A stretch of DNA of 64,000 nt from Candidatus Poribacteria bacterium (GCA_965217715.1 OZ244563.1:1445083-1509082), one strand, 5' to 3'. Shown: positions 1 through 60,638, counted from the first letter of the stretch. Notes: generated by a model from the sequence alone, not told the origin. Program-made: numbers and translations.

Positions 1-1384
1 AAGCCCCGAATCATTCTCTGGTTTGAAAACCGCAATTCGTCTTGGAAAAATGTTCAACAAACAGGTAGAGGCTGTAGGCGTATACGACCCCTATCTGCAC
101 TACATCGTTTTTAATTCCGTTGTAAACGTATTGACTGAACGTGCCGCCAGAACATTCAGATTTAAAGAACAGGAGCAGCTCCACGAAGAGGTAATAGATA
201 CAGGTCTTGCTAAAATATACCAGTCACACCTTGAAGTTGCTCGTTCTATCGCTAAAGAAGATCACGACTATAAACTAAAAATTACTCTCCTTGATGGAAA
301 AGCTTACGAAAAAATACTACAATACACCCGAAAAACTAATCCGTGGCTCCTCGTTTTAGGCAGAATTGGTGTCCATAATGAGCAAGATTCGGACATTGGC
401 AGCACAGCCGAAAACCTCTTACGCCTTTCTCCCTGTAACGTGCTGCTGTCAAGTCAACGTTATTTCCCTCAAATTGATGTAAAAGCAGAAGAAACCCTTG
501 TGTGGACGCAGGAAGCAATGGATCGCATGGAGAAAGCACCTCCACTGGTGCGTGGCATTGCGAAAACTGCAGTGCACCGCTTTGCTATTGAACGCGGGCA
601 TTCTGTTATTACCGAAAGCATTATTGACAAAGCGATGGAAGCGATTATGCCGCAACGCGCCTCTGAAAAACTGACACGTGTCGCAAAAGAGATCGCAGAA
701 CAGAAGGTATTAGAAGTAGGTGATGTGCAAACCTATATCTGTGGGGAATGTGGCTACGCCGCACATGATCAACAACCCGTCCAATGTCCCGTCTGTAGTT
801 CTCCACCAGAACGGTTCCAGATGGTCAATAAAGACTCCATTGAACACATTGCTGTTGACGAAGGTGGCACTGCAGAGGAGGAAACTTTTGATGGTGTTCG
901 CCTGCAATGGTCTGAGCAAGCGAAGAAAGCACTGCGTACCGTACCACGCGGCTATATGCGGCGCAATGTTAAAGCACGAATCGAAAAATCTGCACGATCC
1001 CAAAAGATTGGCACAATTACAAATGATTTCGCCACGCATATTATTGATGACAGCATGGGTGAAGCCGCAGCAGTCCGTGAAGATGCTCCTGAACTCAGAG
1101 CCATGCAAGCACAAACCGAATCTCAAGGAACAGAGACAACAGTAAACATTGAAAGTATCCTTGAATGGACAGAAGATGCTGTAGAACGGTTGAATTTAGT
1201 CCCCGCTGGATTTATGCGAAATATAACCCAAACACGTATTGAACAACGTGCCCAAGAGGTTGATATTTCTGAGATTTCGCTTGATTTTGCAGCACGTGTT
1301 ATAGAAGATGGTAGAAGCCTGGCAAACGAAGTTTTAGGTGAATATTACCAACAATCAAGTAACGGTAATAACGAAGATAGCTAA
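1..1384 (+). CDS. UspA-like domain + rubredoxin-type zinc ribbon + three tandem PCP_red (DPOR ChlB C-terminal-like) repeats; 5' end runs off the window
   Basis: The ORF is open to the window start. The USP-like stretch reads LLVLGRIG...GSTAENLLRLSPCNVLLS. A CxxC...CPVC ribbon follows. Three repeats match W(T/S)xEAxxRLxx(V/I)PxxxR....I, e.g. VWTQEAMDRMEKAPPLVRGIAK, QWSEQAKKALRTVPRGYMRRNVKARIEKSA and EWTEDAVERLNLVPAGFMRNITQTRIEQRA. Confidence 0.5.
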   Translation, partial: SPESFSGLKTAIRLGKMFNKQVEAVGVYDPYLHYIVFNSVVNVLTERAARTFRFKEQEQLHEEVIDTGLAKIYQSHLEVARSIAKEDHDYKLKITLLDGKAYEKILQYTRKTNPWLLVLGRIGVHNEQDSDIGSTAENLLRLSPCNVLLSSQRYFPQIDVKAEETLVWTQEAMDRMEKAPPLVRGIAKTAVHRFAIERGHSVITESIIDKAMEAIMPQRASEKLTRVAKEIAEQKVLEVGDVQTYICGECGYAAHDQQPVQCPVCSSPPERFQMVNKDSIEHIAVDEGGTAEEETFDGVRLQWSEQAKKALRTVPRGYMRRNVKARIEKSARSQKIGTITNDFATHIIDDSMGEAAAVREDAPELRAMQAQTESQGTETTVNIESILEWTEDAVERLNLVPAGFMRNITQTRIEQRAQEVDISEISLDFAARVIEDGRSLANEVLGEYYQQSSNGNNEDS

Positions 1385-1398
1385 AACGGGAATATATT

Positions 1399-1827
1399 AT
1401 GGCGGACCTTCCGACAATTACTTTCCAAATCCTTGGTCCAAATGAAGGCGCCGCAGAGGGATCAAGCAAAGGTTTATGGTTTAAGTTAAAATCTGAGCCA
1501 CCACCATCAGAAGACCTCGTTGTAGGTTTGAAAGTCCGTTCATCTAACGGAAAGATCAGACAATCTGGTGTCATCATGATTCTGAAACATGAAAGCCATT
1601 CTGCAGACTTTTTTTATAAAACAGTGGTAGGTGATCTTGATGTTTGGTTGGAAATTGAACCTATTGACTCCCTTACCAATCTTGAATTTCCTATTTTCAC
1701 AAACGAAGGTTATGTAATAGAGGCAGAGCATAAGTTCCCTGAGTACAACGTTGGAGATCTATCAAAAATAGTTCCTTACCAGTGGAACGGTCACGATCGA
1801 GGCTTATGGACAGACGAGAATCGTTAA
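1399..1827 (+). CDS. hypothetical protein (142 aa)
   Basis: ORF only; no recognisable motif. Confidence 0.3.
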   Translation: MADLPTITFQILGPNEGAAEGSSKGLWFKLKSEPPPSEDLVVGLKVRSSNGKIRQSGVIMILKHESHSADFFYKTVVGDLDVWLEIEPIDSLTNLEFPIFTNEGYVIEAEHKFPEYNVGDLSKIVPYQWNGHDRGLWTDENR

Positions 1828-1928
1828 ACATTGTAATAGCGTAAATAATTGATTCGCGATTCAAGAGACACAGCGTCACACTATACTACAACGGAACTCA
1901 GCAAAGTTCGCTGAAATGGAGATTTATC

Positions 1929-3203
1929 ATGCAAAAGCATATTGTCAACATCCTGCTAATTTCCCTATTTGCGTCTCTAATTCTAATAAACAATGGTTTC
2001 GCTGAAAACTGGCACCAATGGCGTGGACCAAACAACGATGGAATCAGCCAAGAGACCGAAGTGCCTATCCAGTGGAGCCAAACCGAAAATGTTCAATGGC
2101 GCTTACCACTGCCAGGAGAGGGTGCATCTACACCCGTTGTCTGGGGAGATAAGATTTTCCTGACATCTGCTGAAGAAGACGCACTTGTTCTGATGTGCGT
2201 CAACACAGAAGGTGAAGAACTATGGAAACGCACTTTGGGATATGGCAACCGTTCTGCACGCCGTGGCGAAGTCAACTTTGCTGCGCCCTCTCCAACAACT
2301 GACGGTGAACATGTCTGGGCGTTTCTCGGAAGCGGCGATCTCGCCTGTTATGATTTTGAAGGCAATCCCGTCTGGAAGACAAATTTGGAGGATCGTTACG
2401 GCAAATTTAGACTCGGATTCATCATGTCAATGACACCGCTGCTGGACAAGGATAGGCTATACCTTCAACTTATCCATAGTAACGCTTGGTTAGTTCTTGC
2501 ACTTGACAAGATGACAGGTGAAGAAGTATGGAAACATGACCGGAAAAGTGACGCTTTCGCTGAATGCGAACACGCTTACACATCCCCAATTTTATACCGT
2601 GATGCGGAACGTGAATTTCTCGTCGTGCATGGTGCTGACTATGTCACCGCGCACAATCTTGAAGATGGCAGCGAAATTTGGCGATGCGGTGGTATAAATC
2701 CACCGAATAATTATAACCGTTCATTCCGACTCGTTGCTTCTCCTGTGGCCACTGAAGGTCTTATTGTCGTTCCTTCCGCGAAGAGTGGTCCTATTTTAGG
2801 AATAAATCCGTCAGGAACTGGCGATATAACGGACAGCGAATGGCAAACATGGAAACATCCGCGAGACACACCAGATGTTCCATCCCCACTTATCCACGAT
2901 GGCTTAGTCTACCTGTGTCGAGAAAATGGTGACCTGTTATGTCTTGATGCAAAAACGGGAGAGAAGCTTTATCTGATGCGAACACACCGCCAGCGGCACC
3001 GCTCTTCTCCAGTTTATGCTAACGGCTATATCTATCTAACAGCAAGAGATGGTGTTGTCAATGTTGTTAAGGCAGGACGCGAATTTGAAATCGTGGCTAC
3101 GAATTCAATTGACGAAACCGTTGCTGCTTCGCCTGTTATTGCGGATGGAGTTCTCTACTTGCGTAGTTACGATGCCTTGTATGCCATCGGTAAGAAAAAG
3201 TGA
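1929..3203 (+). CDS. secreted PQQ-like beta-propeller repeat protein
   Basis: An N-terminal signal peptide is present. Repeated W-rich blades (NWHQWRGPNNDG, WAFLGSGDLACYDFEGNPVWK, EIWRCGG, LLCLDAKTGEKLY) resemble PQQ/BamB-type propellers. Confidence 0.65.
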   Translation: MQKHIVNILLISLFASLILINNGFAENWHQWRGPNNDGISQETEVPIQWSQTENVQWRLPLPGEGASTPVVWGDKIFLTSAEEDALVLMCVNTEGEELWKRTLGYGNRSARRGEVNFAAPSPTTDGEHVWAFLGSGDLACYDFEGNPVWKTNLEDRYGKFRLGFIMSMTPLLDKDRLYLQLIHSNAWLVLALDKMTGEEVWKHDRKSDAFAECEHAYTSPILYRDAEREFLVVHGADYVTAHNLEDGSEIWRCGGINPPNNYNRSFRLVASPVATEGLIVVPSAKSGPILGINPSGTGDITDSEWQTWKHPRDTPDVPSPLIHDGLVYLCRENGDLLCLDAKTGEKLYLMRTHRQRHRSSPVYANGYIYLTARDGVVNVVKAGREFEIVATNSIDETVAASPVIADGVLYLRSYDALYAIGKKK

Positions 3204-4081
3204 AAAGTTATAAGGAACTCCCGGATGATGCCGGTTCCAACATTATCGGGCAAGTCACTGCACAAGCGAACCGTCTTAGTAAAAGGCTTGCTCCGGTAAA
3301 ACGGACAATCGCTATAATGAGCGGAAAGGGTGGTGTCGGCAAGAGTGCTATTACTGCTAATCTCGCTACTGCTTTGACGTTGGCGGGGTGTGCTGTCGGG
3401 GTTGTTGATGCTGACATCAACGGTCCTACGATTGCCAAAATGATGGGGGTTCGCGACGCAACGCTTGAATATGTATCTACAGGTGTCAAACCGGCAGTCA
3501 GTTCTCTCGGTATTAAGATCATCTCAATGGACTTGCTCCTGTCTGAAGATGATGCACCCGTGCTGTGGAGTGCACATACGCAAAAAGACGCTTTTACATG
3601 GCGTAACACAATGGAAGTAGGCGCACTGCGAGAGTTTATCGGCGACACAGAATGGGGAGAGTTGGACTATCTTCTGCTTGATCTGCCACCAGGTTCTGAC
3701 CGCTTGCCCAATGTGGCTGAACTTATACCAAATCTCGGTGGCGTAGTCGTCGTGACAATTCCCTCCGAAGTCTCACATCTGATTGTCAAAAAATCTATAA
3801 CAATGGCAAGAGACATTCTCAAAGTGCCGATTATCGGTATTGTAGAGAATATGGCGTTTTATGTGTGTAAACATTGTGGTGAACACGAACCTCTCTTTTC
3901 TGCTGCGGATACACCCGCTAATGCGATTCAGTTAACAACGCTCGGCAAAATCCCTTTCGACCCGAAACTCTCACGTTGTAGCGACAGCGGCACCCCTTAT
4001 CTCCATGAACACCCCGATACCCCCGCAAGCAAAGCTATTATAGAAATAGAACAAAATATCCAAAAGTTTTTCAATACATAG
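3200..4081 (+). CDS. apbC: Mrp/ApbC/NBP35-family Fe-S cluster carrier P-loop ATPase
   Basis: Deviant Walker A IAIMSGKGGVGKSAITANLA. A CxxC motif (CKHCGEHEP) sits in the expected position. GTG start overlaps the upstream stop. Confidence 0.75.
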   Translation: MKSYKELPDDAGSNIIGQVTAQANRLSKRLAPVKRTIAIMSGKGGVGKSAITANLATALTLAGCAVGVVDADINGPTIAKMMGVRDATLEYVSTGVKPAVSSLGIKIISMDLLLSEDDAPVLWSAHTQKDAFTWRNTMEVGALREFIGDTEWGELDYLLLDLPPGSDRLPNVAELIPNLGGVVVVTIPSEVSHLIVKKSITMARDILKVPIIGIVENMAFYVCKHCGEHEPLFSAADTPANAIQLTTLGKIPFDPKLSRCSDSGTPYLHEHPDTPASKAIIEIEQNIQKFFNT

Positions 4082-4131
4082 TTCTGGACACCGCCTTTTT
4101 ACTTTTCCGCAAATGATATGGAGATTAAACG

Positions 4132-4650
4132 ATGAAATTCTTATGTATAGACTGTGACACAGCAATGAAATTTAAAGACGTAACCCGTCCTGAACAGGGT
4201 TCCGTCACCGCTGTATTTGAATGTCCCGATTGTTTTACTGAGATAGCAATGTACTTAAATCCATCGGAAACGCAAATGCTAAAATCCTTAGACCTGAAAC
4301 TTGGCGGTAGCAGCGAAGCGGCACAACCGATGCAGATGGTTCGTTCGCAGTTAGAAACCGCAAAGCAAGATTCAATGCCAAACATACCGTCAGAAATGGG
4401 TTCCGGTGAAACTGCTGAAGGTGGAAAGTGTCCCTTTACCTCTGTTATCTCGGATGCTTTTGAGGAAAAATCTGAACCTGATGGTCTCACATGGACACCT
4501 GAAGCACTTGAACGTTTAGAACGAATCCCAAGCTTTGTCCGTCCGATGGCAAAGATGGGAATTGAAAGTTTTGCCAAAGATAACGGACATGACGAAATCA
4601 CTGCCGAAGTGATGGATGCCGCACGCGGAAACTTCCCCGCGCAGTTCTAA
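4132..4650 (+). CDS. zinc-ribbon + PCP_red domain protein
   Basis: Two CxxC pairs at the N-terminus (CIDCD...CPDC). The C-terminus reads TWTPEALERLERIPSFVRPMAKMGIESFAKDNGHDEITAEVMDAARG, which is ChlB C-terminal-like. Confidence 0.5.
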   Translation: MKFLCIDCDTAMKFKDVTRPEQGSVTAVFECPDCFTEIAMYLNPSETQMLKSLDLKLGGSSEAAQPMQMVRSQLETAKQDSMPNIPSEMGSGETAEGGKCPFTSVISDAFEEKSEPDGLTWTPEALERLERIPSFVRPMAKMGIESFAKDNGHDEITAEVMDAARGNFPAQF

Positions 4651-4764
4651 AACCATAAATGCTTGATACCCTCTCGGGTTTCGGCTATAATTAAGGCACA
4701 ATATAGATAGAACTAAAATCCCTAACCTTTGTTTTCACGCATCTTTTGGTAAAGGAGAAACATT

Positions 4765-5557
4765 ATGGCAACCAACGCGAAAAAGGACCAGGTCTCTTAT
4801 GTCCCCACAGATGCATTGACACTTTATCCTGAAGAGGATGGAAAACCGATGGCAGCAAGCGATCTTCATAGGCATCAGTTGTTTTGGACATTAGAAGCAC
4901 TTGAGGCACATTTCTCACATAACCCATCTGTCTATATCTCTGGTGATATTCTGATATATTATGTGGAAGGCTCACCTAATAAGTCTATATCTCCAGATGT
5001 TCTTGTCTCTTTCGAAATAGGAATGAAGGCAAGGCGGACATATTTGGTGTGGGAAGAGGGTAAAGTGCCAGAATTCGTGATGGAGTTCAGCAGTAAAAAC
5101 ACATACCAAAATGACTTAACTAAAAAGATGGATATCTACGCATCACTCAAGATACAGGACTATTTCTTGTATGATGCGGAAGGTCTGTATTTACCATCAC
5201 AACTGATGGGGTTTGAGTTGGTTAATGGCAACTATGTGGCGGTTCAACCAGATGAGAGTGGTGGTATTCGTTCATCGTCCTTAGGTTTAGATTTCCGCAT
5301 AAGGGATCAGGAAATAGGTATCTATGATCCAGTTACGCGTGACTGGGTGCGAACACGTGCAGAAGCAGAAGCGATACGTGCCGATACCGCCGAAGCGAAG
5401 CACGCGCAGAACAAGAAACTACCGCACGACTGAAGGAAACTACACGCGCCGAAACTGCTGAAGCACGCGCAGAACAAGAAACTACCGCACGACAGGAAGC
5501 GGAAGCGGAAGCCGCACAACTCCGAGAAGAGATCGCACGCTTGCAAGCACGCACTTA
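4765..5557 (+). pseudogene. Uma2-family (DUF820) PD-(D/E)xK putative endonuclease; the 3' end has a 63-bp-period tandem repeat and a frame break. The intact reading frame covers 4765-5433.
   Basis: Uma2-like core: SPDVLVSFEI...PEFVMEFSS...DYFLYD. The annotated frame stops at 5431. A different frame continues as EARAEQETTARLKETTRAETAEARAEQETTARQEAEAEAAQLREEIARLQART to a stop at 5555. Compared with the second repeat copy, the first carries an extra 5 nt near 5393-5400. Confidence 0.5.
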
Positions 5558-5615
5558 ATACACTATTTGAAACGTTGTTGGCAAAAATAGAACAACTAAA
5601 ACAGGAAGAGTCGCT

Positions 5616-5912
5616 ATGAAATACGGCTTATCAGACCGAACTCTTGAAAAAATACACGGCGTTTTCAAGCAGTATCCACAGATTGAGAAGGCAATTTTGT
5701 ACGGTTCACGTGCCATAGGCACATATCGAAACGGATCTGACATTGACCTAACCCTCTGTGGCGAAGGATTAACACACAGCGTGCTTTCTAAAATTGACAC
5801 CGATCTTGATGATCTGCTTTTACCTTATACGATTGACCTCTCTGTTTTCAGCAAGATAGGAAATCCGGATATGGTTGCGCAAATTGAACGTGTCGGGGGT
5901 GAACTTTTATGA
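5616..5912 (+). CDS. minimal nucleotidyltransferase (MNT/Pol-beta superfamily) protein
   Basis: The motif LYGSRAIGTYRNGSDIDLTL matches GS...DxD. Confidence 0.65.
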   Translation: MKYGLSDRTLEKIHGVFKQYPQIEKAILYGSRAIGTYRNGSDIDLTLCGEGLTHSVLSKIDTDLDDLLLPYTIDLSVFSKIGNPDMVAQIERVGGELL

Positions 5913-5973
5913 GAAATGTGAGAGCGTATAATCTCATACCTAACCGTAAGGCAAATCGAGCAAATAACAAACA

Positions 5974-6432
5974 ATGCGGACGTTTGTAGAACTTTTCATC
6001 CGAAGTATCCATCTTATTGCGGCAATAGTCTGGTTCGGAGGTGTCATTTTTTCAACACTGATTGCGATGCCGATAGTTCGGCAAAACCTACCAGCGCAAG
6101 ACCTGTTGGAGATTCACAATCGATTTCGCCACTGGATCCGATTGATGATTAATATGCTTTTACTCACAGGCGGCATTGTGGTATTTATTGTTGCATGGAA
6201 TAGTAATATGGAATTAAAATCGGAGTATATGATATATTCAGCTGCAAAGTTGGCAGCATTCGGATTGATGGCACTCTTTTGGGGACTATACAGTTCACTT
6301 TATCGGAAGCACCTGGAGGCAGCACAACCAGATAGTAACGTTATCGTTCCCCATCATATAAACGCATTCGGACATTTGACATTATTTTCAGGATTAGTTG
6401 TATTCGCGCTCGCACTACTATTGAGAAATTAA
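5974..6432 (+). CDS. small integral membrane protein (about 4 TM helices)
   Basis: Hydrophobic segments only. Confidence 0.35.
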   Translation: MRTFVELFIRSIHLIAAIVWFGGVIFSTLIAMPIVRQNLPAQDLLEIHNRFRHWIRLMINMLLLTGGIVVFIVAWNSNMELKSEYMIYSAAKLAAFGLMALFWGLYSSLYRKHLEAAQPDSNVIVPHHINAFGHLTLFSGLVVFALALLLRN

Positions 6433-6444
6433 AATATGTGCCCT

Positions 6445-6474
6445 GGTAGGTGCGGTTAGGAAACCGCACCTACC
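6445..6474. repeat. family-A palindromic element (ggtaggtgcggttaggaaaccgcacctacc)
   Basis: Perfect 30-bp palindrome. Related copies occur at 27332, 27471, 31174, 31998, 35056, 35101, 54402 and 58153. Confidence 0.8.
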
Positions 6475-6500
6475 GCGAAAAAAGATTATGGATTCACTAA

Positions 6501-7805
6501 ATGGAAAACACAAAAGTTCAGGCAGTCTCATGGAATATCACCAGATTGTGCAATCTAAAATGTACGCACTGCTACCTCCCCGCCGGGTTCGTTGATACAG
6601 ACGAGTTTCCGCAAGGGTATTTGAGAGATGCAGAATTGAGCCAATCCGAGTGTTTTCGTATTATTGATGAGATAGCCGAAATTAACCCTCATATTCTGCT
6701 GATACTCACGGGTGGCGAACCGTTGTTACGTCCAGATATTCTGGAGATTTCAAAATACGCTTGGGATACCGGGTTTCTTGTCGTGATGGGAACAAATGGT
6801 GTCCTCCTGAACGACAAAGTCGTTGAAAAGATGCAACAACACGGTGTTACTGGCGCGGGATTAAGTCTGGATTCAATCCAGCCAGCAAATCACGATAAGT
6901 TTCGCGGAATGGAAGGCGCGTGGAAAGCAACGATGGGAGGCGTTGAAGCACTCAAACGTGCACAGCTTGACTTCCTCGTCCAAACCTCTGTGACGCAGTG
7001 GAATTACGATGAAATCCCAGAAATTGTAGAATTTGCATATCAGTTGGGGGCGAAGGTGCTAAACCTCTATTTTCTCGTGCGAACGGGACGGGGTAAGACG
7101 GTAATGGACATTACGCCTGCGCAATATGAGAAGATGCTTGAGACGATGTTCCAACTACAGGCAGAATATAGCGGGAAGATGCTCATCGCCGCGAAATGCG
7201 CACCGCATTACAAACGTGTTATCTATGAACAGCAGTCCGATTCAGCGTTCCTTCAAGGCTATCCGAGTGGTACGTGCCCTTGCGGTATCTATTATTGTCG
7301 CATAAGCCCTGAAGGTGAACTGACACCGTGTCCGTATCTACCTGTCAGCGTTGGCAATCTCAAAGACGAGAGTTTTGTCAAACTGTGGAATGAATCGGAA
7401 GCATTTCATGAGTTGCGAAATAGGGATATGCTGCAAGGGAAGTGTGGTGCATGTGAATTCAGAGAGGTATGCGGTGGATGTAGAGCACGTGCTTTTGCCA
7501 CGACTGGCAACTATCTTGCCGCAGATGAGTCTTGTGAATATCAACCAGGGCAGCAAAGACAACAGCCCGTTCAATTGGAAAAACGGACTGTCTTTGGAAC
7601 AGAACCCGATTACGATTTAAAGTGGAACGATGCAGCGGAAAAGAGATTGAAGCGCGTTCCATCATTTGCGCGCGGTATGGTTGTCAAAAGCGTTGAAAAA
7701 TATGCGCGTGAACACGGCTATCGAGAAATCACACCGGAACTGATGAAAGCGGTCAAAGAGAGGTTTGACAAAACTGGCATTCCCTCTTTCCGACCGCGTC
7801 GATAG
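6501..7805 (+). CDS. radical SAM enzyme with SPASM/twitch auxiliary-cluster domain and C-terminal PCP_red domain
   Basis: The CNLKCTHC sequence fits the Cx3Cx2C radical-SAM motif. Cys-rich SPASM region: CPCGIYYC...CPY, CGACEFREVCGGC. The C-terminus reads KWNDAAEKRLKRVPSFARGMVVKSVEKYAREHGYREITPELMKAVKERF. Confidence 0.75.
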   Translation: MENTKVQAVSWNITRLCNLKCTHCYLPAGFVDTDEFPQGYLRDAELSQSECFRIIDEIAEINPHILLILTGGEPLLRPDILEISKYAWDTGFLVVMGTNGVLLNDKVVEKMQQHGVTGAGLSLDSIQPANHDKFRGMEGAWKATMGGVEALKRAQLDFLVQTSVTQWNYDEIPEIVEFAYQLGAKVLNLYFLVRTGRGKTVMDITPAQYEKMLETMFQLQAEYSGKMLIAAKCAPHYKRVIYEQQSDSAFLQGYPSGTCPCGIYYCRISPEGELTPCPYLPVSVGNLKDESFVKLWNESEAFHELRNRDMLQGKCGACEFREVCGGCRARAFATTGNYLAADESCEYQPGQQRQQPVQLEKRTVFGTEPDYDLKWNDAAEKRLKRVPSFARGMVVKSVEKYAREHGYREITPELMKAVKERFDKTGIPSFRPRR

Positions 7806-7819
7806 ACTTGTATTTTCTT

Positions 7820-7928
7820 CTGTAGGAGGGAATCAACGCCAAATACGCGTGTGGTATTTGGCGGGTTTGTAACCCCGATTTCTTATTTTTCTTTTGTAGG
7901 AGGGGTTTGTAACCCCGATTTCTTACGC
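7820..7928. repeat. family-B (tgtaggag) MITE-like element containing a ccaaatacgcgtgtggtatttgg hairpin and two copies of ttgtaaccccgatttctta
   Basis: Intergenic. Shares tgtaggagg and gtttgtaaccccgat modules with copies at 27397, 29841, 31925, 32050 and 54735. Confidence 0.7.
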
Positions 7929-7951
7929 TAAAAACAGTAGAGGAAACTTGT

Positions 7952-8671
7952 ATGCTAACAGCAAAACAGGTGGAATATTTTCAGGAAAACGGATACCTTA
8001 TTCTTGAAAACTTGATCGATTCAGATGTAATTGATGGGTGGCGGGAACAGATTTGGAAGCATTTCAACTCCAGCTTGGAGACTCCAGAAACGTGGCCCGA
8101 CAATTATGTAGTAGAAAACTTCGGTTTTTCCCCAAATTTCGGACAATTGCCTCCGATGCAAGCGATTATTGAGCGATTGGGCGGTGGTGAGTTTGCAGGT
8201 GGAGGCGGCGCACCACTTGTGAAATGGCCTAACCCAGATGCGGAATGGTCAATGCCGGGTAGTGGACACATTGATGCCTATGGACCTGGTGGATGGAGTC
8301 CGTTTATGATGGGTGCAACGACCTATCTATACGACGTTGAACCCGGTGGCGGTGCTTTTGTCTTTTGGCCCAAAAGCCATCGGACAACACACGAATACTT
8401 CCTCAAATATCCTGAGCAGGTTGATGGAAGTTTTACAGATATTGAAGGGTGGAGTTGGAATTTATTTTCAGATTCATCACCAGAGGGACCGCGAGAGTTT
8501 ATCGGCGCGGCGGGTGATGTTGTGCTATGGCACGCATATCTGTGCCATACAGGTTCTGGCAATATCAGGAACATCCCACGTGTCGGCATATTCGCACGCT
8601 ACCACCATAAACGACGTGAAGAAATTAGATACGAAATTCCGGAAGACCTCTGGAAATATTGGGTAATTTAA
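7952..8671 (+). CDS. PhyH-family (phytanoyl-CoA dioxygenase-like) Fe(II)/2-oxoglutarate oxygenase
   Basis: N-terminal LTAKQVEYFQENGYLILENLI. An HxD motif (GSGHIDAYG) and a distal His (WHAYLCHTGSGN) are present. Confidence 0.6.
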   Translation: MLTAKQVEYFQENGYLILENLIDSDVIDGWREQIWKHFNSSLETPETWPDNYVVENFGFSPNFGQLPPMQAIIERLGGGEFAGGGGAPLVKWPNPDAEWSMPGSGHIDAYGPGGWSPFMMGATTYLYDVEPGGGAFVFWPKSHRTTHEYFLKYPEQVDGSFTDIEGWSWNLFSDSSPEGPREFIGAAGDVVLWHAYLCHTGSGNIRNIPRVGIFARYHHKRREEIRYEIPEDLWKYWVI

Positions 8672-8680
8672 GGAGGAAAC

Positions 8681-9094
8681 ATGAGCGAGCAAACTAACGT
8701 TCAAAAACGACTCACAAGCGTTGAAGACCGTTTGGAGCGTCTGGAAAATCTGCTAACCAGCATTGATGAAAAGCTGGAGCAGATATCGCAAACTGATGTT
8801 ATAGAATCTGGAAGCACAGAAAAGTTTCAACAGTGGGTGACCGATTACGTCTCAATGCGGTTACAGCAACTTGTGCCAGAAACCTGCGATCATCCCGCAG
8901 AAGCAGCGGCACAGGACGGTCCTTTTCTTGATAACACCAATGTGCCGTGCACGGAAGAGGTTGTACATCGCGTTAAACGAATTCCAATCCCGTTTGTGCG
9001 GGAGATGGTTGTCCAACGTGTGGCAGAGAACGCGCGTTCCGCACAAATTGAACGTGTGGATATTGAGTTTTTTGAAAATGCTGCCACGTTCTGA
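8681..9094 (+). CDS. coiled-coil + PCP_red domain protein
   Basis: N-terminal heptad-like region LERLENLLTSIDEKLEQI. C-terminal EEVVHRVKRIPIPFVREMVVQRVAENARSAQIERVDIEFFENA. Confidence 0.5.
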   Translation: MSEQTNVQKRLTSVEDRLERLENLLTSIDEKLEQISQTDVIESGSTEKFQQWVTDYVSMRLQQLVPETCDHPAEAAAQDGPFLDNTNVPCTEEVVHRVKRIPIPFVREMVVQRVAENARSAQIERVDIEFFENAATF

Positions 9095-9870: not shown

Positions 9871-10245
9871 ATGGACTGGGTTTTTAATACATTCTCTGAA
9901 TATCTCGATAACGATTTCAAAAAGCGAATCGGAAATCCGAATCCCACCGTCGCTGACCTATGGAATGCTTTTCAAGTGCTCTTTCCTGCTACTTCCGCCC
10001 AACTTTTAGTACAGGAACCTGTAGGCAACACTGTACGGTTCAAACCGCTCGCTTTCTATTACGCTGACGAAATGGGTCCGTTAATTGATGCTCCTATGGA
10101 TTATCTCAAACAGAATTTCGGAGGCGGGAAGTTTAAAATTAACTTTTATCACGGCATGCAGTTCATCGCGACAATTAATTTCAAGCCAGAAGGTCCAGAA
10201 ATCTGGCGAGATTTACCTGAAATGGAGGTAATCGGTCCCTCATGA
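9871..10245 (+). CDS. hypothetical protein (124 aa)
   Basis: ORF only. Confidence 0.3.
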   Translation: MDWVFNTFSEYLDNDFKKRIGNPNPTVADLWNAFQVLFPATSAQLLVQEPVGNTVRFKPLAFYYADEMGPLIDAPMDYLKQNFGGGKFKINFYHGMQFIATINFKPEGPEIWRDLPEMEVIGPS

Positions 10246-10685
10246 ATCAACAACAAGAGTATGGGGAGTGCCCTCAGTGTGGCAAGGTAAACATCCAGCA
10301 GTTGGATGCGAATTCATGGTTCTGTTTGGATTGTGACTGGGATACTCTTAAGACAATTTCAACGGGCAATGACGAATTACTTGTTTCCTTACGTCATGGT
10401 GATATCCACTCTCGACGTATTGCAGCCCAATCCTTGATCAATATCGGTGATGTAGAACGGCATATCGCTGCTCCTTCAGATACAGAAGCATTGTTGGAGG
10501 CACTTGAAGATGAGGACGCAGATGTGCGTTATTTTGTGGCAGTCGCACTTGGCAAACTCAAAACAAAACATAGCCTCAACAAACTCAAACAACTTGCCCA
10601 AAATGATGCCTCTGCACTTGTGCGGGAGGGTGCGCAAACAGCAGTAAAACAGATAGAATCGCTTGGAGATAAAGGAGACCGATAG
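10242..10685 (+). CDS. zinc-ribbon + HEAT (PBS-lyase-like) repeat protein
   Basis: Zinc ribbon CPQCG...CLDCDW. Repeats DIHSRRIAAQSLINIGD / DADVRYFVAVALGKLK / ALVREGAQTAV. Confidence 0.5.
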   Translation: MNQQQEYGECPQCGKVNIQQLDANSWFCLDCDWDTLKTISTGNDELLVSLRHGDIHSRRIAAQSLINIGDVERHIAAPSDTEALLEALEDEDADVRYFVAVALGKLKTKHSLNKLKQLAQNDASALVREGAQTAVKQIESLGDKGDR

Positions 10686-11753
10686 ATGGAAAGAGTTAAA
10701 ATCGGTTATGTTGGATGCGGGTTTATGGCACAGAAGGTGCATATTCCGAATTTTGCAAGTATTCCAGAGTGTGAAATCGTCGGACTCGCGGAGGTACGTT
10801 CAGAACTTGGCAAAAAAGTGCAACAACGATTCAGCATTCAGCATCTTTATCGGGATCACACTGAACTTGCCCAAAACGCTGATATTGAAGCGGTGGCAGT
10901 ATCCGCTGATTTTGCCTTACAAGGCGAGATTGCCAAAGACCTCCTACGTGCCGGAAAACATGTCTTTATGGAAAAACCGATGGCTATTTCAGTTGAACAA
11001 GCACAAGCTATCGTGGATGCCTCACAAGAATCCGGTAAAAAATTGATGGTAGGCTACATGAAACGCTACGATGCTGGCAACGAGATTGTTAAAGAGAAGA
11101 TCGCACAATTCCGTGAAACAGGTGAAATGGGACGTTTAACTTATGCCCGCAATCACGGCTTTGGTGGCGATTGGGTGTGCAATCTTGATACTCCTATGGA
11201 CAGCACGGATGAACCGAAACCCAGCGCACCGCAGAAATTCCCAGAGTGGCTCCCAAAAAAATGGTGTGGTGGATACATCGGATATCTTCAGCAGTATACA
11301 CACAACATCAATCTAATGCGGTGGTTTCTTGATGCTGGTGATAACGTCACCGTTAAAGCAGTTGACTTGAATAAAAACGGGTATACAGGCGTTGTAATTT
11401 TTGATATGGCTGGCACACGAGTAACGCTGGAAACCGGACATGTTTCCCATTACCGTTGGGATGAACATTCACAAATTTATTTTCAGCACGGTTGGATTCA
11501 CACATGGGCACCGCCGCTGTTGCTGAAGAACACACCTGCAGAGGTCGAAATATACCGCGCAGGCGAAGAGCAGGAGATTACACGACCCATTCCAAGACCT
11601 TCATGGACATGGGCATATCACAGAGAAGCAGAATATTTTGTTAAAAACTTACGCAACCCTGAACCGTTCCGTTCATCTGCTGAAGATACGTTAACAGATG
11701 TAAGATTGTTTGAGGACATCTACCGCATCTTTATCGCACAGCAAGAAAACTAA
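10686..11753 (+). CDS. Gfo/Idh/MocA-family NAD(P)-dependent oxidoreductase
   Basis: N-terminal Rossmann fold KIGYVGCGFMAQKVHIPNF. Family-typical EKPMA motif. Confidence 0.75.
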   Translation: MERVKIGYVGCGFMAQKVHIPNFASIPECEIVGLAEVRSELGKKVQQRFSIQHLYRDHTELAQNADIEAVAVSADFALQGEIAKDLLRAGKHVFMEKPMAISVEQAQAIVDASQESGKKLMVGYMKRYDAGNEIVKEKIAQFRETGEMGRLTYARNHGFGGDWVCNLDTPMDSTDEPKPSAPQKFPEWLPKKWCGGYIGYLQQYTHNINLMRWFLDAGDNVTVKAVDLNKNGYTGVVIFDMAGTRVTLETGHVSHYRWDEHSQIYFQHGWIHTWAPPLLLKNTPAEVEIYRAGEEQEITRPIPRPSWTWAYHREAEYFVKNLRNPEPFRSSAEDTLTDVRLFEDIYRIFIAQQEN

Positions 11754-14734: not shown

Positions 14735-15448
14735 TTATTGGACAACATCACCTTCAACAGGTTCAACTTGGACTTTGATGTTCTTTAGGTAATCAATAGC
14801 GCGTTCAATTTCATCCGAGGCACCCTGTATTTCTAACATGACCCAACCCGATTCTTCAGTTACGTTGGCGCGCCGAATATTGGTGACCACCCGAAACTGT
14901 TGTCCAATATTGTAAATAATAGGTTCAGTAATTTTTTCAGGCGGAAAAGTTAGACGTACCTTTAATGAGGCTGTTTGCATCCCTCCAGATGGAGTTTGTT
15001 GGAACGGAACTTCAATAAAATCGGATTTAACTTCATCCCAAGCAAAAGCCTTGACAACACGAATTATGTCTTCGTAGATAGAGATGACAAGATATGCCAC
15101 CCCTGGATAAGCAGGTTCGCCCCACATCATCGCGTCCGATTTATCCTTTTCAGAGAAGTATGCCTCATGGTTCGGATGTGAATGATAAAACGCTTTAATC
15201 GAACGATCTTCTGCTTCAATCTCTTTATGTACAAAGATTAGGTCATCGGGGTGCATTAAGTAAGCTGTGTGAGCATCGCGCGGGTAGGCGGCGGGGTCAT
15301 CTTTATGCATTTCGTTTTGGATATTCCGGCAAGGTCTGACAAACTCCTGTGCATCTGCATGTAGAATTACACCACAGCATTCCTCAGGAAATTGTGCCTT
15401 TGCATGTGCACATATCTCATTGAAGGTTTTAGGTAGTAGTGTTAACAT
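14735..15448 (-). CDS. JAMM/MPN+ metalloprotease (Mec+-like) with C-terminal NIL-like ferredoxin-fold domain
   Basis: Glu in PEECCG followed by HSHPNHEAYFSEKD, which fits HxHx7Sx2D. Start moved to MLTLL, since the longer ORF adds a non-conserved leader. Confidence 0.7.
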   Translation of the reverse strand: MLTLLPKTFNEICAHAKAQFPEECCGVILHADAQEFVRPCRNIQNEMHKDDPAAYPRDAHTAYLMHPDDLIFVHKEIEAEDRSIKAFYHSHPNHEAYFSEKDKSDAMMWGEPAYPGVAYLVISIYEDIIRVVKAFAWDEVKSDFIEVPFQQTPSGGMQTASLKVRLTFPPEKITEPIIYNIGQQFRVVTNIRRANVTEESGWVMLEIQGASDEIERAIDYLKNIKVQVEPVEGDVVQ

Positions 15449-15519
15449 ATCGTTTATGAAAATTATATACGAATCGCATACGGGCGGATGTGGTATCCGC
15501 CTGTACACGAAATACCGTT

Positions 15520-15807
15520 TTAGGAAAGGTTTCTGCCGCCAGCAATAGCTGGGATTATTGAAATTTCGGCACCATCAGTGACAGGAGTCGCTTTGCCATC
15601 AAGAAAACGGATATCTTCGTCATTCAGATAGATGTTCACAAACCGACGGATGTTCCCACCTTCATCGCAAAGACGTTCTTTCATCCCGGGATAGTCTGAG
15701 TCCAAATTTTCGATGATGGTTTCAATATCTGTGCCTTTAGTTTCAACCTCCGCGAGATTCTGTGTTAACCTCCTCAGCGGGGTTGGAATACGAACTATTA
15801 CAGCCAT
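15520..15807 (-). CDS. MoaD/ThiS/CysO-like sulfur-carrier protein with short extension after Gly-Gly
   Basis: 95 aa with a beta-grasp-like pattern. C-terminus IPAIAGG followed by RNLS. Confidence 0.55.
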   Translation of the reverse strand: MAVIVRIPTPLRRLTQNLAEVETKGTDIETIIENLDSDYPGMKERLCDEGGNIRRFVNIYLNDEDIRFLDGKATPVTDGAEISIIPAIAGGRNLS

Positions 15808-15893
15808 TTTTCCTCCTTTATCGGGTCAGAATTCTGACGCCGTACTTTTTGTAGAATATGGTAATGGCGGGAAAATCCGCCAATTCGTTAATA

Positions 15894-16652
15894 TCAGATA
15901 GCATAGTGTAACCCACACTCTTTGTTGTTTTCCTCAGCGTCTGTTCCGTTTTGCCAACGCCATCTACCGGCACGTTTGGGTTCACCAGGTCGGATTCGCG
16001 TCGTACAGGTCATACATCCGAGTGATTCATAGTAGTGTCCATGAGCGTCAGGTTTAAAAAGCGGGTTGACAGGCACATCATTCTCACGCACAAATTGCCA
16101 TACTTGCTCGGTTGTCCAGTGAATTAAGGGACTCACCTTGAGAATAGGATGCGTCTTAGATGAGATGATTTCTGCTTTCTGAAAATTTTGTCGTGTTTCA
16201 GATTGATCTTTCCGCGTACCAGTAATCCAAACATCTAATGTTTCTAAAAGCGCTTGCATAGGGCGAATCTTTCGGACATCACAACAGTACTTCTGTTTCG
16301 CTTTGCTGTCAAAAAAGAGGTATTCCCCATGTTCGGTTATCATTTCTTCTACCTCAGTAGTGTTTGGCTGGATCCGTTCAATCTCAATACCGTAGCGTTC
16401 TTCAACTTGATCAAAAAAAGCGTAGGTTTCAGGAAAGAGACGAAACGTGTCTAACGTACACACTCTAAAAGGTAATTTACTTTCAGCGGCGAGATGTATT
16501 TGAACCATACCCGACAACTGACCACTTGTTACAATAGCTGCCCGATCATTAAACTGTTTAAAGAGGCAGAAAAGGATTTCTTGCGGGTCCTCTTTTAAGG
16601 TTATCTGCTGTTTCAATGTTATCATTGAAGCAGTTTCAATTTGAAATGCCAT
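15894..16652 (-). CDS. cysH: assimilatory adenylyl-sulfate/PAPS reductase (thioredoxin-dependent, Fe-S type)
   Basis: C-terminal ECGLH motif. CC...CxxC cysteines (KYCCD, CMTC) are typical of APS-type enzymes. Confidence 0.75.
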   Translation of the reverse strand: MAFQIETASMITLKQQITLKEDPQEILFCLFKQFNDRAAIVTSGQLSGMVQIHLAAESKLPFRVCTLDTFRLFPETYAFFDQVEERYGIEIERIQPNTTEVEEMITEHGEYLFFDSKAKQKYCCDVRKIRPMQALLETLDVWITGTRKDQSETRQNFQKAEIISSKTHPILKVSPLIHWTTEQVWQFVRENDVPVNPLFKPDAHGHYYESLGCMTCTTRIRPGEPKRAGRWRWQNGTDAEENNKECGLHYAI

Positions 16653-16678
16653 TCCGTTTTTTCCTGTTTAGACTCCTT

Positions 16679-19561: not shown

Positions 19562-19578
19562 ACGGACAGAGGTAGAAC

Positions 19579-41816: not shown

Positions 41817-41871
41817 AGTTAGAAGGGTAATTAAGTAGAATTCTGGAAAAACTTTATGTTGCTGCAGAAAT

Positions 41872-60637: not shown

Positions 60638-60638
60638 G

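What the first reader, a model, noticed from the sequence alone, without database searches (positions are those of the whole stretch)
1..9094. Gene cluster in which four proteins carry six copies of the PCP_red (DPOR ChlB C-terminal-like) domain, next to radical-SAM/SPASM, Mrp/ApbC, PQQ-propeller and PhyH genes
A roughly 45-aa motif, W(T/S)xEAxxRLxR(I/V)PxFVRxM...ITxEL...A, occurs three times in the ORF at 1-1384. It occurs once each at the C-terminus of the zinc-ribbon protein (4132-4650), the radical-SAM/SPASM enzyme (6501-7805) and a coiled-coil protein (8681-9094). This pattern matches the C-terminal domain of protochlorophyllide-reductase subunit B (IPFFVRGKxRRNTEKFA...IT). That domain is otherwise rare and uncharacterised outside DPOR. 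The cluster also holds an Fe-S carrier ATPase, a secreted PQQ-like propeller and a 2OG oxygenase, all on the same strand. This looks like a maturation pathway (metallocofactor or peptide/protein modification) that uses PCP_red as a common docking module. I know of no described system with this composition.
Basis: partly seen in the sequence, partly recalled or inferred. Interest (0 to 1): 0.75.

Follow-up and report, generated by a model that had tools for sequence, protein, structure and literature searches.

The report
Conserved PCP_red / radical-SAM gene module
A sponge-symbiont (Poribacteria) genome carries its version of an undescribed operon, shared by at least seven bacterial phyla, in which a haem-synthase-like radical SAM enzyme and several partner proteins all carry the small domain otherwise known only from the chlorophyll enzyme DPOR; it probably processes or hands over haem for respiratory oxidases.

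Summary
Pfam PCP_red (PF08369) matches three times in the ORF at 2-1384 and once each in the ORFs at 4132-4650 and 6501-7805, all above threshold. The sixth copy (8681-9094) is weaker: 22.6 bits against a cut-off of 32.5.

The cluster is real and no description of it was found.
- a tandem-Usp protein with PCP_red repeats and a rubredoxin-like ribbon;
- an AhbD/NirJ2-like radical SAM/SPASM enzyme ending in PCP_red;
- a small four-helix membrane protein, CopD-like here and DUF420 elsewhere.

This trio or pair recurs in Poribacteria, Nitrospira, Ca. Manganitrophus, Ca. Binatia and Mariprofundaceae. In Brocadiales the enzyme itself carries three PCP_red copies. The Usp-PCP_red gene often lies beside cytochrome bd-like oxidase, cytochrome c, Rieske/cytochrome b or ResB genes. 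The PQQ propeller, PhyH and Mrp genes were linked to it only in Poribacteria loci.

PCP_red proteins are enriched in isolated Cys-Pro motifs that resemble haem-regulatory motifs (KCPFT in this window).

My best guess (confidence 0.4) is an oxygen-independent iron-tetrapyrrole processing and hand-over system for membrane oxidases. Function is untested.

The parts
2..1384 (+). C-terminal 460 aa of a tandem-Usp / PCP_red / rubredoxin-like / PCP_red / PCP_red protein; the gene starts left of the window and the full-length homologue is 647 aa
   Evidence: Pfam: Usp 43.3 bits (aa 1-149), PCP_red 95.9 bits with 3 stretches, RUBY_RBDX aa 245-272 at 22.5 bits, below its 26.5-bit cut-off. It is 74% identical to the 647-aa protein of L001. 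The Usp domain reads GRIGVHNEQDSDIGST, which fits the G-x2-G-x9-G-S/T ATP motif (read from the sequence; motif from memory).
503..634 (+). PCP_red copy 1
   Evidence: Pfam best stretch aa 168-211; alignment A6
734..817 (+). Rubredoxin-like Cys4 ribbon (CGEC...CPVC)
   Evidence: PF21349 RUBY_RBDX, aa 245-272, E=7.4e-5, 22.5 bits, below its 26.5-bit cut-off. The same domain recurs in homologues from other phyla.
908..1039 (+). PCP_red copy 2
   Evidence: One of the three Pfam stretches. Position taken from the motif at aa 303 and alignment A6.
1166..1297 (+). PCP_red copy 3
   Evidence: One of the three Pfam stretches. Position taken from the motif at aa 389 and alignment A6.
1399..1827 (+). 142-aa protein with no family match; lineage-specific neighbour
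   Evidence: No Pfam or NCBIfam hit. Found in 20 of the related loci.
1929..3203 (+). Secreted PQQ_2/BamB-like beta-propeller; Poribacteria-specific neighbour whose stop overlaps the Mrp start
   Evidence: PQQ_2 77.6 bits. Scores on the PQQ-dehydrogenase NCBIfam models are far below their cut-offs. Present in 31 of 80 Poribacteria loci and in none of the non-Poribacteria loci.
3200..4081 (+). Mrp/ApbC-type Fe-S cluster carrier ATPase; Poribacteria-specific accessory
   Evidence: PF10609 241 bits; NCBIfam MrpORP 241 bits and ApbC 170 bits, both below their cut-offs. Present in 32 of 80 Poribacteria loci and in L001; not in L167, L168 or L170.
4132..4650 (+). Cys4 zinc-ribbon protein with an invariant GGKCPFTSV linker motif and a C-terminal PCP_red
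   Evidence: PCP_red 65.9 bits, aa 121-165. C5, C8, C31, C34, K99, C100, P101 and F102 are invariant in 13 orthologues.
4426..4437 (+). KCPF: isolated Cys-Pro motif resembling a haem-regulatory motif
   Evidence: Invariant in alignment A4. KCPFT also ends the 73-aa PCP_red protein of Mariprofundaceae. Cys-Pro is enriched family-wide, p=4e-17.
4765..5912 (+). Inserted genes: Uma2-family nuclease and a Pol-beta-type nucleotidyltransferase; not part of the system
   Evidence: Pfam. Present in only 19 and 16 loci. A promoter-like site matching 11 of 12 positions lies at 4663-4691. L001 has a different insert at the same place.
5974..6432 (+). 152-aa four-helix membrane protein, CopD-like; conserved core member
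   Evidence: CopD PF05425 32.7 bits against a 32.1 cut-off; weak UPF0093/HemJ hit. Adjacent to the radical SAM gene in all 80 Poribacteria loci and in Nitrospira, Manganitrophus and L098. H13, W20, G22 and G23 are invariant.
6501..7805 (+). AhbD/NirJ2-like radical SAM/SPASM enzyme with C-terminal PCP_red (aa 375-419, nt 7623-7757)
   Evidence: Pfam. NCBIfam AhbD 323 bits, NirJ2 307 bits, both below the 500-bit cut-offs. The CX3CX2C motif and nine further Cys are invariant in 48 homologues. AF2 model pLDDT 80.8, pTM 0.83.
7952..8671 (+). PhyH-family Fe(II)/2-oxoglutarate oxygenase; Poribacteria-specific neighbour
   Evidence: PhyH 35.8 bits. Follows the radical SAM gene in 76 of 80 Poribacteria loci and is duplicated in L041. 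Absent in L001 and in other phyla.
8681..9094 (+). 137-aa coiled-coil protein with a divergent PCP_red-like C-terminus (nt 8957-9082)
   Evidence: PCP_red 22.6 bits, below the cut-off. hhalign E=5e-4. Present in 78 of 80 Poribacteria loci and in L001. Strongly conserved; C69, H71 and C90 are invariant.

Best explanation
Shown: the window holds the Poribacteria version of a conserved operon I could not find described anywhere. Its core has three parts. (i) A radical SAM/SPASM enzyme of a distinct clade next to the haem enzymes AhbD/NirJ2, always ending in one to three PCP_red domains. (ii) A tandem-Usp protein carrying two to six PCP_red domains, usually with a rubredoxin-like Cys4 ribbon. (iii) A small four-helix membrane protein, CopD-like here and replaced elsewhere by the unrelated DUF420/CtaM family. 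Lineages add extra PCP_red-only proteins; here these are the zinc-ribbon protein and the 137-aa protein. Poribacteria add an Mrp Fe-S carrier.

Inferred: the enzyme performs an oxygen-independent, SAM-radical side-chain reaction on an iron tetrapyrrole. The most concrete version is AhbD-type decarboxylation of coprohaem to haem b. The alternative is a further modification of haem. The Cys4 ribbons move electrons to or from its clusters. Mrp supplies its three [4Fe-4S] clusters. The PCP_red domains are the common contact surface by which enzyme and partners dock and pass the tetrapyrrole on. Cys-Pro loops such as KCPFT act as transient thiolate ligands. The membrane protein links the process to the assembly of membrane respiratory oxidases such as cytochrome bd-like enzymes.
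For: Conservation across phyla. The Usp-PCP_red gene is directly followed by the radical SAM-PCP_red gene in Nitrospira (L167), Ca. Manganitrophus (L168) and metagenome loci L098, L100 and L133; one or two small genes lie between them in Mariprofundaceae (L170) and Ca. Binatia (L006); the two lie about 6 kb apart in L172; in Poribacteria they sit in one same-strand cluster several genes apart. In Brocadiales three PCP_red copies are fused to the enzyme. In a neighbour-joining tree all 16 PCP_red-fused enzymes form one clade beside NirJ2.

Tetrapyrrole link. The best models for every member tested are AhbD and NirJ2 at 320-340 bits; peptide maturases score about 130 bits. Nine further invariant Cys fit two auxiliary clusters, as in AhbD (PMC10452713). 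AhbD is known to work alone in organisms that lack the rest of the Ahb pathway (PMC13564367).

Respiratory context. Cytochrome bd-like subunit I, cytochrome c, EB_dh haem-b domains, Rieske/cytochrome b or ResB lie next to the module in L006, L108, L170, L171, L172 and L173. CopD-like and DUF420 proteins occupy the same operon slot without detectable homology. Both families are tied to haem-copper oxidase assembly in B. subtilis (PMC13344008).

Cys-Pro motifs. Of 324 isolated Cys in 146 PCP_red representatives, 54 are followed by Pro (16.7% against 4.4% expected, p=4e-17). The next residue is mostly F or V, and His follows within four residues in 19 cases. Cys-Pro loops are transient haem-binding sites that can pass haem on to a His (PMC10377097).

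Oxygen-dependent counterpart. The PCP_red-rubredoxin-PCP_red-PCP_red cassette is also fused to a haem-oxygenase-fold iron enzyme in Nitrospinae. This recalls the radical SAM versus oxygen-dependent enzyme pairs of tetrapyrrole synthesis (from memory).
Against: No biochemical or genetic datum exists for any member. The enzyme fails the curated cut-offs of AhbD and NirJ2 (323 and 307 against 500), so its substrate may differ. I could not check whole genomes for ChdC, canonical AhbD or the other haem genes. No conserved His, Cys, Met or Tyr that could ligate iron lies inside PCP_red. I found no stated role for the last ~55 residues of ChlB/BchB in the DPOR papers I could read. Linker Cys-Pro motifs occur in only 2 of the 9 full modules examined. 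About half of the radical SAM-PCP_red loci have no Usp-PCP_red gene within 10 kb. No haem-synthesis gene lies next to the module in the 64-kb window. The membrane partners could point to copper rather than haem.
Confidence: 0.4

Rival explanations
1. Protein or peptide maturation. The SPASM enzyme modifies a Cys or another residue in the small PCP_red proteins. Candidate sites are KCPFT in the zinc-ribbon protein and C69/H71/C90 in the 137-aa protein. PCP_red would be the recognition domain shared by enzyme and substrates.
For: SPASM enzymes often modify peptides or proteins; the nearest solved folds are PqqE, SkfB, SuiB and anSME. The small PCP_red proteins have invariant Cys in conserved loops. 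KCPFT recurs in two phyla. PCP_red sits on both enzyme and candidate substrates.
Against: HMM scores are 2.5 times higher for the tetrapyrrole enzymes than for any peptide maturase. The small proteins are not universal: Nitrospira L167, L098 and Binatia L006 have none. The constant partner is a 550-900-aa Usp protein, not a short precursor. No protease or exporter typical of RiPP clusters is conserved next to it.
Confidence: 0.2
2. Copper handling for oxidase assembly. The membrane protein (CopD-like or DUF420) moves copper. The Cys-Pro(-His) loops and Cys4 ribbons of the PCP_red proteins bind Cu(I). The radical SAM enzyme makes or matures a copper-dependent site in bd-like or haem-copper oxidases.
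For: CopD and CtaM/DUF420 are both implicated in copper trafficking to oxidases (PMC13344008). They substitute for each other in the operon without homology. A CusB/RND pair follows the module in L098. Cys and His in flexible loops can bind Cu(I) (from memory).
Against: The CopD match is at threshold (32.7 against 32.1 bits) and far below the NCBIfam CopD cut-off (32 against 195). The protein is a 152-aa four-helix fragment with one conserved His and no CopC partner. Nothing links AhbD/NirJ-type enzymes to copper. This reading could also be complementary to the haem reading rather than exclusive.
Confidence: 0.12
3. A redox, oxygen or haem-responsive regulatory pair. The ATP-binding tandem-Usp protein senses energy or redox state, or haem through its ribbon and Cys-Pro sites. 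It switches the radical SAM enzyme on under low oxygen by docking through PCP_red.
For: The Usp domains carry the ATP motif (read from the sequence). In several lineages the enzyme gene lies beside histidine kinases and response regulators instead of Usp. Usp-PCP_red genes also occur without the enzyme, beside oxidase genes.
Against: This does not say what the enzyme does, so it is a layer on top of the other readings. Arrays of up to six PCP_red copies are not explained by simple on/off docking.
Confidence: 0.13
4. Ordinary synteny. The radical SAM gene is simply this organism's AhbD with a decorative tail, and the neighbouring PCP_red genes are functionally unrelated.
For: Most of the 80 Poribacteria loci are close relatives (82-96% identity), so shared gene order there proves little. 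Some lineages have the enzyme alone.
Against: The pairing recurs in at least six other lineages with different surrounding genes. A domain found in only 1669 clusters of 1.84 billion appears on three to four adjacent genes in several phyla. The Brocadiales fusion points the same way.
Confidence: 0.05

Closest known systems
AhbD (haem b synthase) and NirJ2: radical SAM/SPASM enzymes of the sirohaem-dependent haem pathway
   Same: Same fold and domain order (CX3CX2C radical SAM core plus a SPASM domain with enough Cys for two auxiliary clusters). These are the best-scoring families over their full length. AhbD also occurs alone in organisms lacking AhbA-C (PMC13564367).
   Different: Scores 323 and 307 bits against 500-bit cut-offs. 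The sequences form a separate clade. They always carry C-terminal PCP_red domain(s) and are linked to Usp-PCP_red and a membrane protein. No AhbA/B/C genes were seen nearby.
DPOR subunit B (ChlB/BchB) C-terminal domain, the only characterised home of PCP_red
   Same: The repeats match the last ~55 residues of ChlB/BchB (Pfam, NCBIfam and PDB 2xdq_B 453-508). Both contexts involve an Fe-S enzyme acting on a tetrapyrrole, if my reading is right.
   Different: No nitrogenase-like domain and no ChlL/ChlN. The organisms are not phototrophs. The domain is multiplied and spread over several proteins. Its role in DPOR itself is not stated in the papers I could read.
Haem-regulatory (Cys-Pro) motif proteins such as Irr, Hap1, ALAS and HO-2
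   Same: Isolated Cys-Pro followed by a hydrophobic residue, often with a nearby His, in flexible linkers (PMC10377097). The examples GATCPIDH and KCPFGH resemble the Hap1 consensus (consensus from memory).
   Different: No sequence relation beyond the short motif. Haem binding is untested here. The motif is absent from most of the full modules examined.
CopD/YcnJ and CtaM (DUF420): oxidase-assembly membrane proteins
   Same: The module's third gene belongs to one or the other family. Both are needed for functional haem-copper oxidases in B. subtilis (PMC13344008).
   Different: The protein here is only 152 aa, matches CopD at threshold, has no CopC or YtkA domain, and has one invariant His. 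It also gives a weak hit to HemJ/UPF0093.
PqqE/PqqD, MftC and anSME-type SPASM maturases with a partner-recognition domain
   Same: A SPASM enzyme plus a small helical domain shared with, or binding to, partner proteins. These are the closest solved structures.
   Different: Sequence similarity is much lower than to the haem enzymes. PCP_red is unrelated to the PqqD/RRE fold as far as the Pfam matches show. No short precursor peptide gene is present.

Membership tests
Pfam PCP_red (PF08369) | Score at or above the 32.5-bit gathering threshold | tested here: met
   95.9 bits (3 stretches), 65.9 and 57.9 bits for the ORFs at 2-1384, 4132-4650 and 6501-7805
Pfam PCP_red (PF08369), sixth copy in 8681-9094 | Score at or above the 32.5-bit gathering threshold | tested here: not met
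   22.6 bits, E=1.1e-4. Supporting but weak: BLASTP E=7e-6 and hhalign E=5e-4, probability 31%. The conserved Trp is replaced by Cys.
DPOR subunit B (ChlB/BchB) | Nitrogenase-like catalytic domains, full-length match to TIGR01278/NF002789, ChlL/ChlN partners | tested here: not met
   Only profile positions about 444-535 (the C-terminal tail) match, at 39-62 bits against cut-offs of 490-509. No Oxidored_nitro domain.
AhbD haem b synthase (TIGR04545) | Equivalog score of at least 500 bits | tested here: not met
   323.3 bits over the full model. Relatives from Brocadiales and Binatia score 338 and 320 bits.
AhbD haem b synthase | Converts Fe-coproporphyrin III to haem b | not testable with these tools
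   Needs an enzyme assay or complementation
NirJ2 (TIGR04055) | Equivalog score of at least 500 bits | tested here: not met
   306.6 bits. True NirJ2 proteins from loci L123 and L126 score 608-614 bits.
Radical SAM / SPASM subfamily | CX3CX2C motif, Radical_SAM and SPASM Pfam domains, Cys set for auxiliary clusters | tested here: met
   C17-x3-C21-x2-C24. PF04055 80.3 bits and PF13186 32.7 bits. Nine further invariant Cys. SPASM-type fold in the AF2 model.
Universal stress protein (Usp, PF00582) | Pfam score at or above 24 bits; ATP-binding motif G-x2-G-x9-G-S/T | tested here: met
   43.3 bits. GRIGVHNEQDSDIGST read in the translation. Full-length homologues have two Usp domains.
Mrp/ApbC/NBP35 Fe-S carrier | PF10609 match, deviant Walker A, CxxC cluster-bridging motif | tested here: met
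   241 bits. GKGGVGKS and CKHC are present in the translation. The equivalog cut-offs for ApbC and MrpORP are not reached.
CopD copper-resistance/import protein | Pfam and NCBIfam cut-offs; eight-helix CopD body; CopC partner | tested here: inconclusive
   Pfam 32.7 bits against a 32.1 cut-off. NCBIfam CopD 32 bits against 195. Only 152 aa and about four helices. No CopC.
PQQ-dependent dehydrogenase | Score at the cut-off of the quinoprotein dehydrogenase models | tested here: not met
   27-37 bits against cut-offs of 480-833. It is a PQQ_2/BamB-like propeller only.
PhyH Fe(II)/2OG oxygenase | Pfam score at or above 22 bits | tested here: met
   35.8 bits. Substrate unknown.

The most novel reading that the evidence does not exclude
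PCP_red may be a dedicated tetrapyrrole hand-over domain. The module would then be a previously unseen haem maturation and insertion line for cytochrome bd-like and related membrane oxidases in Nitrospira, Manganitrophus, Binatia, iron-oxidising Zetaproteobacteria, anammox bacteria and Poribacteria. The radical SAM enzyme would make, without oxygen, either haem b or a modified haem for these oxidases. A haem-oxygenase-fold enzyme fused to the same PCP_red cassette would do the equivalent step with oxygen in Nitrospinae.
Probability: 0.15. Interest if true: 0.85.

Novelty: new variant of a known kind. Interest (0 to 1): 0.68.

Why it matters
The module occurs in lineages that drive nitrite, manganese, iron and ammonium oxidation, and in abundant sponge symbionts. 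These organisms depend on unusual, haem-rich respiratory chains whose assembly is largely unknown. A dedicated, conserved set of genes built around a haem-synthase-like radical SAM enzyme gives concrete candidates for three problems:
- how haem is finished or modified without oxygen in these organisms;
- how it reaches cytochrome bd-like oxidases;
- what the orphan C-terminal domain of the chlorophyll enzyme ChlB/BchB is for.

It also turns several thousand 'universal stress protein' and 'radical SAM protein' annotations into a testable system.

Tried and rejected
- Literature: six of the nine searches run looked for a description of this system (PCP_red/PF08369; AhbD with anammox; Poribacteria with radical SAM and haem; protochlorophyllide with Nitrospira and Usp; coprohaem decarboxylase with Nitrospira; cytochrome bd-like with radical SAM). 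None found the system.
- Role of PCP_red in DPOR: the papers I could open do not discuss the last ~55 residues. The di-copper site and the trans helix lie at BchB 398-420, upstream of PCP_red, so I dropped my remembered 'substrate lid' argument. Two look-ups of the 2013 PNAS DPOR complex paper failed.
- Genome scan: the 80 loci kept were all Poribacteria, so it gave within-phylum synteny only. Other phyla came from the metagenome scan and from contig look-ups.
- AF2 model of the enzyme: good quality (pTM 0.83), but coordinates are not exposed, so I could not see where PCP_red packs. Foldseek against the PDB returned only generic SPASM enzymes; no AhbD/NirJ structure was among the hits.
- CopD-like versus DUF420: no homology, so I treat it as an analogous replacement.
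- Upstream region in the second Poribacteria clade (L041): unrelated genes.
- Window genes beyond 12 kb: no haem-synthesis genes.
- Promoter and terminator scan: counts did not differ from shuffled sequence.

Full report
**Organism and layout**

The closest relatives of the radical SAM protein are all from Candidatus Poribacteria, symbionts of sponges and corals, at 82-96% identity.

On the + strand of 1-9094 the genes are as follows:

| Coordinates | Product |
|---|---|
| 2-1384 | C-terminal 460 aa of a Usp / PCP_red / rubredoxin-like / PCP_red / PCP_red protein |
| 1399-1827 | 142-aa protein with no family match |
| 1929-3203 | secreted PQQ_2/BamB-like propeller |
| 3200-4081 | Mrp/ApbC |
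| 4132-4650 | Cys4 ribbon + PCP_red |
| 4765-5433 | Uma2 nuclease |
| 5616-5912 | nucleotidyltransferase |
| 5974-6432 | CopD-like four-helix membrane protein |
| 6501-7805 | radical SAM + SPASM + PCP_red |
| 7952-8671 | PhyH |
| 8681-9094 | coiled coil + PCP_red-like tail |

**Observation check**

Five of the six claimed copies pass Pfam's curated threshold by a wide margin. They map to the last ~55 residues of ChlB/BchB.

The sixth copy scores 22.6 bits, below the 32.5 cut-off, and lacks the conserved Trp. BLASTP (E=7e-6) and profile-profile comparison (E=5e-4, probability 31%) make it a probable divergent copy. Its family is very strongly conserved: the mean column identity is 83% over 32 species, and C69, H71 and C90 are invariant.

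**What is conserved**

I compared the window proteins with 80 Poribacteria species loci.
- CopD-like, radical SAM-PCP_red, PhyH and the 137-aa gene stay together in 76-80 of them.
- The Usp-PCP_red, propeller, Mrp and zinc-ribbon genes lie directly upstream in only about 29-33. These are the loci closest to the window.
- A more distant Poribacteria genome (L001, 81% identity) again has Usp-PCP_red, a second Usp, Mrp, zinc-ribbon-PCP_red, CopD-like, radical SAM-PCP_red and the 137-aa gene. It lacks the propeller and PhyH, and a different insert sits where the window has Uma2 and the nucleotidyltransferase.

Outside the phylum the same core recurs:

| Lineage (locus) | Gene order |
|---|---|
| Nitrospira (L167) | B12-radical SAM, Usp-PCP_red-rubredoxin-PCP_red, radical SAM-PCP_red, CopD-like |
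| Ca. Manganitrophus (L168) | Usp-PCP_red, radical SAM-PCP_red, 330-aa protein with four PCP_red stretches, CopD |
| Mariprofundaceae (L170) | ResB, Usp-PCP_red, 73-aa PCP_red protein, radical SAM-PCP_red, 320-aa PCP_red protein, DUF420 |
| Ca. Binatia (L006) | cytochrome c, EB_dh, Usp-PCP_red x3, two membrane proteins, radical SAM-PCP_red, cytochrome bd-like subunit I, three cytochromes c |
| Metagenome L098 | B12-radical SAM, Usp-PCP_red x3, radical SAM-PCP_red, CopD-like, CusB/RND pair |
| Metagenome L100, L133 | DUF420, Usp-PCP_red, radical SAM-PCP_red x3 |
| L172 | cytochrome bd-like oxidase and cytochromes c, Usp-PCP_red, then radical SAM-PCP_red about 6 kb further on |
| Brocadiales | the enzyme itself carries three PCP_red domains and stands alone beside a histidine kinase |

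Usp-PCP_red genes without the enzyme lie beside cytochrome bd-like, Rieske and cytochrome b genes in L171 and in Dormibacteraeota.

About half of the enzyme loci show no Usp-PCP_red gene within the sequence available.

The PQQ propeller, PhyH and Mrp genes were seen only in Poribacteria loci. PhyH genes are also found elsewhere in this window (60639-61526).

**The enzyme**

All PCP_red-fused enzymes that I tested score 320-340 bits on both AhbD and NirJ2 models, whose cut-off is 500. Genuine NirJ2 proteins recovered in the same scan score 608-614 bits. PqqE and the mycofactocin maturase score about 130 bits.

In a neighbour-joining tree of the catalytic cores, all 16 fused enzymes form one clade. 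It sits next to NirJ2 and a group of N-terminally extended relatives (no bootstrap).

The CX3CX2C motif and nine more Cys are invariant. This fits two auxiliary clusters, as shown for AhbD (PMC10452713). The AF2 model is confident (pLDDT 80.8, pTM 0.83). It shows PCP_red as three helices after a disordered linker. I could not inspect how they pack.

**The PCP_red family**

A profile of the six window copies finds 1669 clusters (50% identity) among 1.84 billion representatives, 452 of them at E<=1e-10. The proteins are 99-1147 aa long and carry one to six copies.

Twenty of them sampled with Pfam gave these architectures:
- tandem Usp + PCP_red repeats, with or without a rubredoxin-like ribbon (15 proteins);
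- radical SAM/SPASM + PCP_red (1 protein);
- PCP_red only (3 proteins);
- PCP_red, rubredoxin, PCP_red, PCP_red + a haem-oxygenase-fold 'iron-containing redox enzyme' (1 protein).

The last architecture occurs in about 15 clusters from Nitrospinae and Deltaproteobacteria MAGs.

**Cys-Pro motifs**

The zinc-ribbon protein has an invariant GGKCPFTSV in its linker. The 73-aa PCP_red protein of Mariprofundaceae ends in KKCPFTGEES.

Across 146 non-enzyme representatives, 54 of 324 isolated Cys are followed by Pro. That is 16.7% against a Pro frequency of 4.4% (binomial p=4e-17). They occur in 42 proteins. The next residue is F in 19 cases and V in 13. His lies within four residues in 19 cases.

Cys-Pro loops are the commonest transient haem-binding motif and can pass haem to a nearby His (PMC10377097). 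Only two of the nine full modules I examined have such a linker motif, so this is supporting evidence, not a defining feature.

**The membrane partner**

The CopD-like protein matches CopD at threshold and HemJ/UPF0093 weakly. It has one invariant His in helix 1, in the pattern H-L-x5-W-x-G-G.

In three loci from at least two lineages (L100, L133 and L170) DUF420 takes its place. The two families show no detectable homology. CopD (YcnJ) and DUF420 (CtaM) are both needed for functional haem-copper oxidases in B. subtilis and are thought to move copper (PMC13344008).

**Interpretation**

The shown facts are these: a conserved multi-phylum module; a haem-enzyme-like radical SAM core; PCP_red on every soluble partner; frequent Cys4 ribbons; a membrane partner from oxidase-assembly families; and frequent respiratory haem-protein neighbours.

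From these I infer an oxygen-independent iron-tetrapyrrole processing and hand-over system serving membrane oxidases. PCP_red would be the shared docking domain, the ribbons the electron carriers and Mrp the cluster supplier. I put this at about 0.4.

The rivals are protein maturation (0.2), a regulatory Usp switch (0.13), copper handling (0.12) and mere synteny (0.05). Several of these could be combined with the main reading.

**Novelty**

The catalytic core belongs to a known enzyme class. The module, the spread of PCP_red beyond DPOR and its partners were not described in anything I could find. I therefore file it as a new variant of a known kind, of fairly high interest.

Noticed in passing
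window 4663-5912: A Uma2-family nuclease gene and a Pol-beta-type nucleotidyltransferase gene sit inside the cluster, preceded by a near-consensus promoter-like site (11 of 12 positions). They are present in only 16-19 of the related loci, so they look like an insertion.
   Followed up: partly
window 18266-20097; L001 7267-9228: The N-terminal residues of the 431-aa and 173-aa ORFs here closely resemble those of the N6_N4 methyltransferase and 173-aa proteins that interrupt the PCP_red cluster in another Poribacteria genome (L001), judged by eye without an alignment. This may be a mobile two-gene cassette.
   Followed up: partly
window 7863-7882, 7903-7922, 54750-54769: The 20-mer GGGTTTGTAACCCCGATTTC, a small hairpin plus a T-rich tail, occurs twice in tandem between the radical SAM and PhyH genes. 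A copy with three mismatches lies at 54750. None is expected by chance.
   Followed up: partly
L167 8200-9807; L098 3692-5308: In Nitrospira and in L098 a B12-binding radical SAM gene of about 535 aa lies directly upstream of the Usp-PCP_red gene. In Nitrospira a UbiE-type methyltransferase gene precedes it. This may be an additional lineage-specific member of the module.
   Followed up: no
L104-L117 (for example L106 8957-11041): The nearest relatives without PCP_red (about 41% identity) are 640-730-aa proteins. They carry an unannotated N-terminal extension of about 350 aa in front of an AhbD/NirJ2-like core (370-380 bits, below the cut-offs). This looks like another uncharacterised subfamily.
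   Followed up: partly
L041 11341-12894: In a second Poribacteria clade two PhyH paralogues lie in tandem between the radical SAM gene and the 137-aa gene.
   Followed up: partly
window 9871-11753: A 124-aa protein with no family match, a zinc-ribbon + HEAT-repeat protein (weak PBS-lyase HEAT hit) and a GFO/IDH/MocA oxidoreductase follow the cluster in about 75 of 80 Poribacteria loci. Whether this is functional linkage or plain synteny is undecided.
   Followed up: partly
window 32316-34976 (-), 39506-40795 (-): An 887-aa protein with weak multihaem c554/MtrC-like hits (individual stretches below threshold) plus TPR repeats, and a di-haem cytochrome c peroxidase/MauG-family protein, show that this genome encodes periplasmic c-type haem proteins.
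   Followed up: no
window 40914-42059 (-), 47203-48558 (-), 58607-61526 (+): Two FGE-sulfatase-domain proteins (one fused to BNR repeats), a sulfatase and a second PhyH-family gene are present.
   Followed up: no
window 14738-15508 (-): A 257-aa protein with a prokaryotic JAB domain and a NIL domain is encoded here. By reading alone, not verified, the ORFs downstream of it on the same strand (15523-18063) look like a small ThiS-like protein, a cysteine-synthase-like protein and an Rrf2-like regulator.
   Followed up: no
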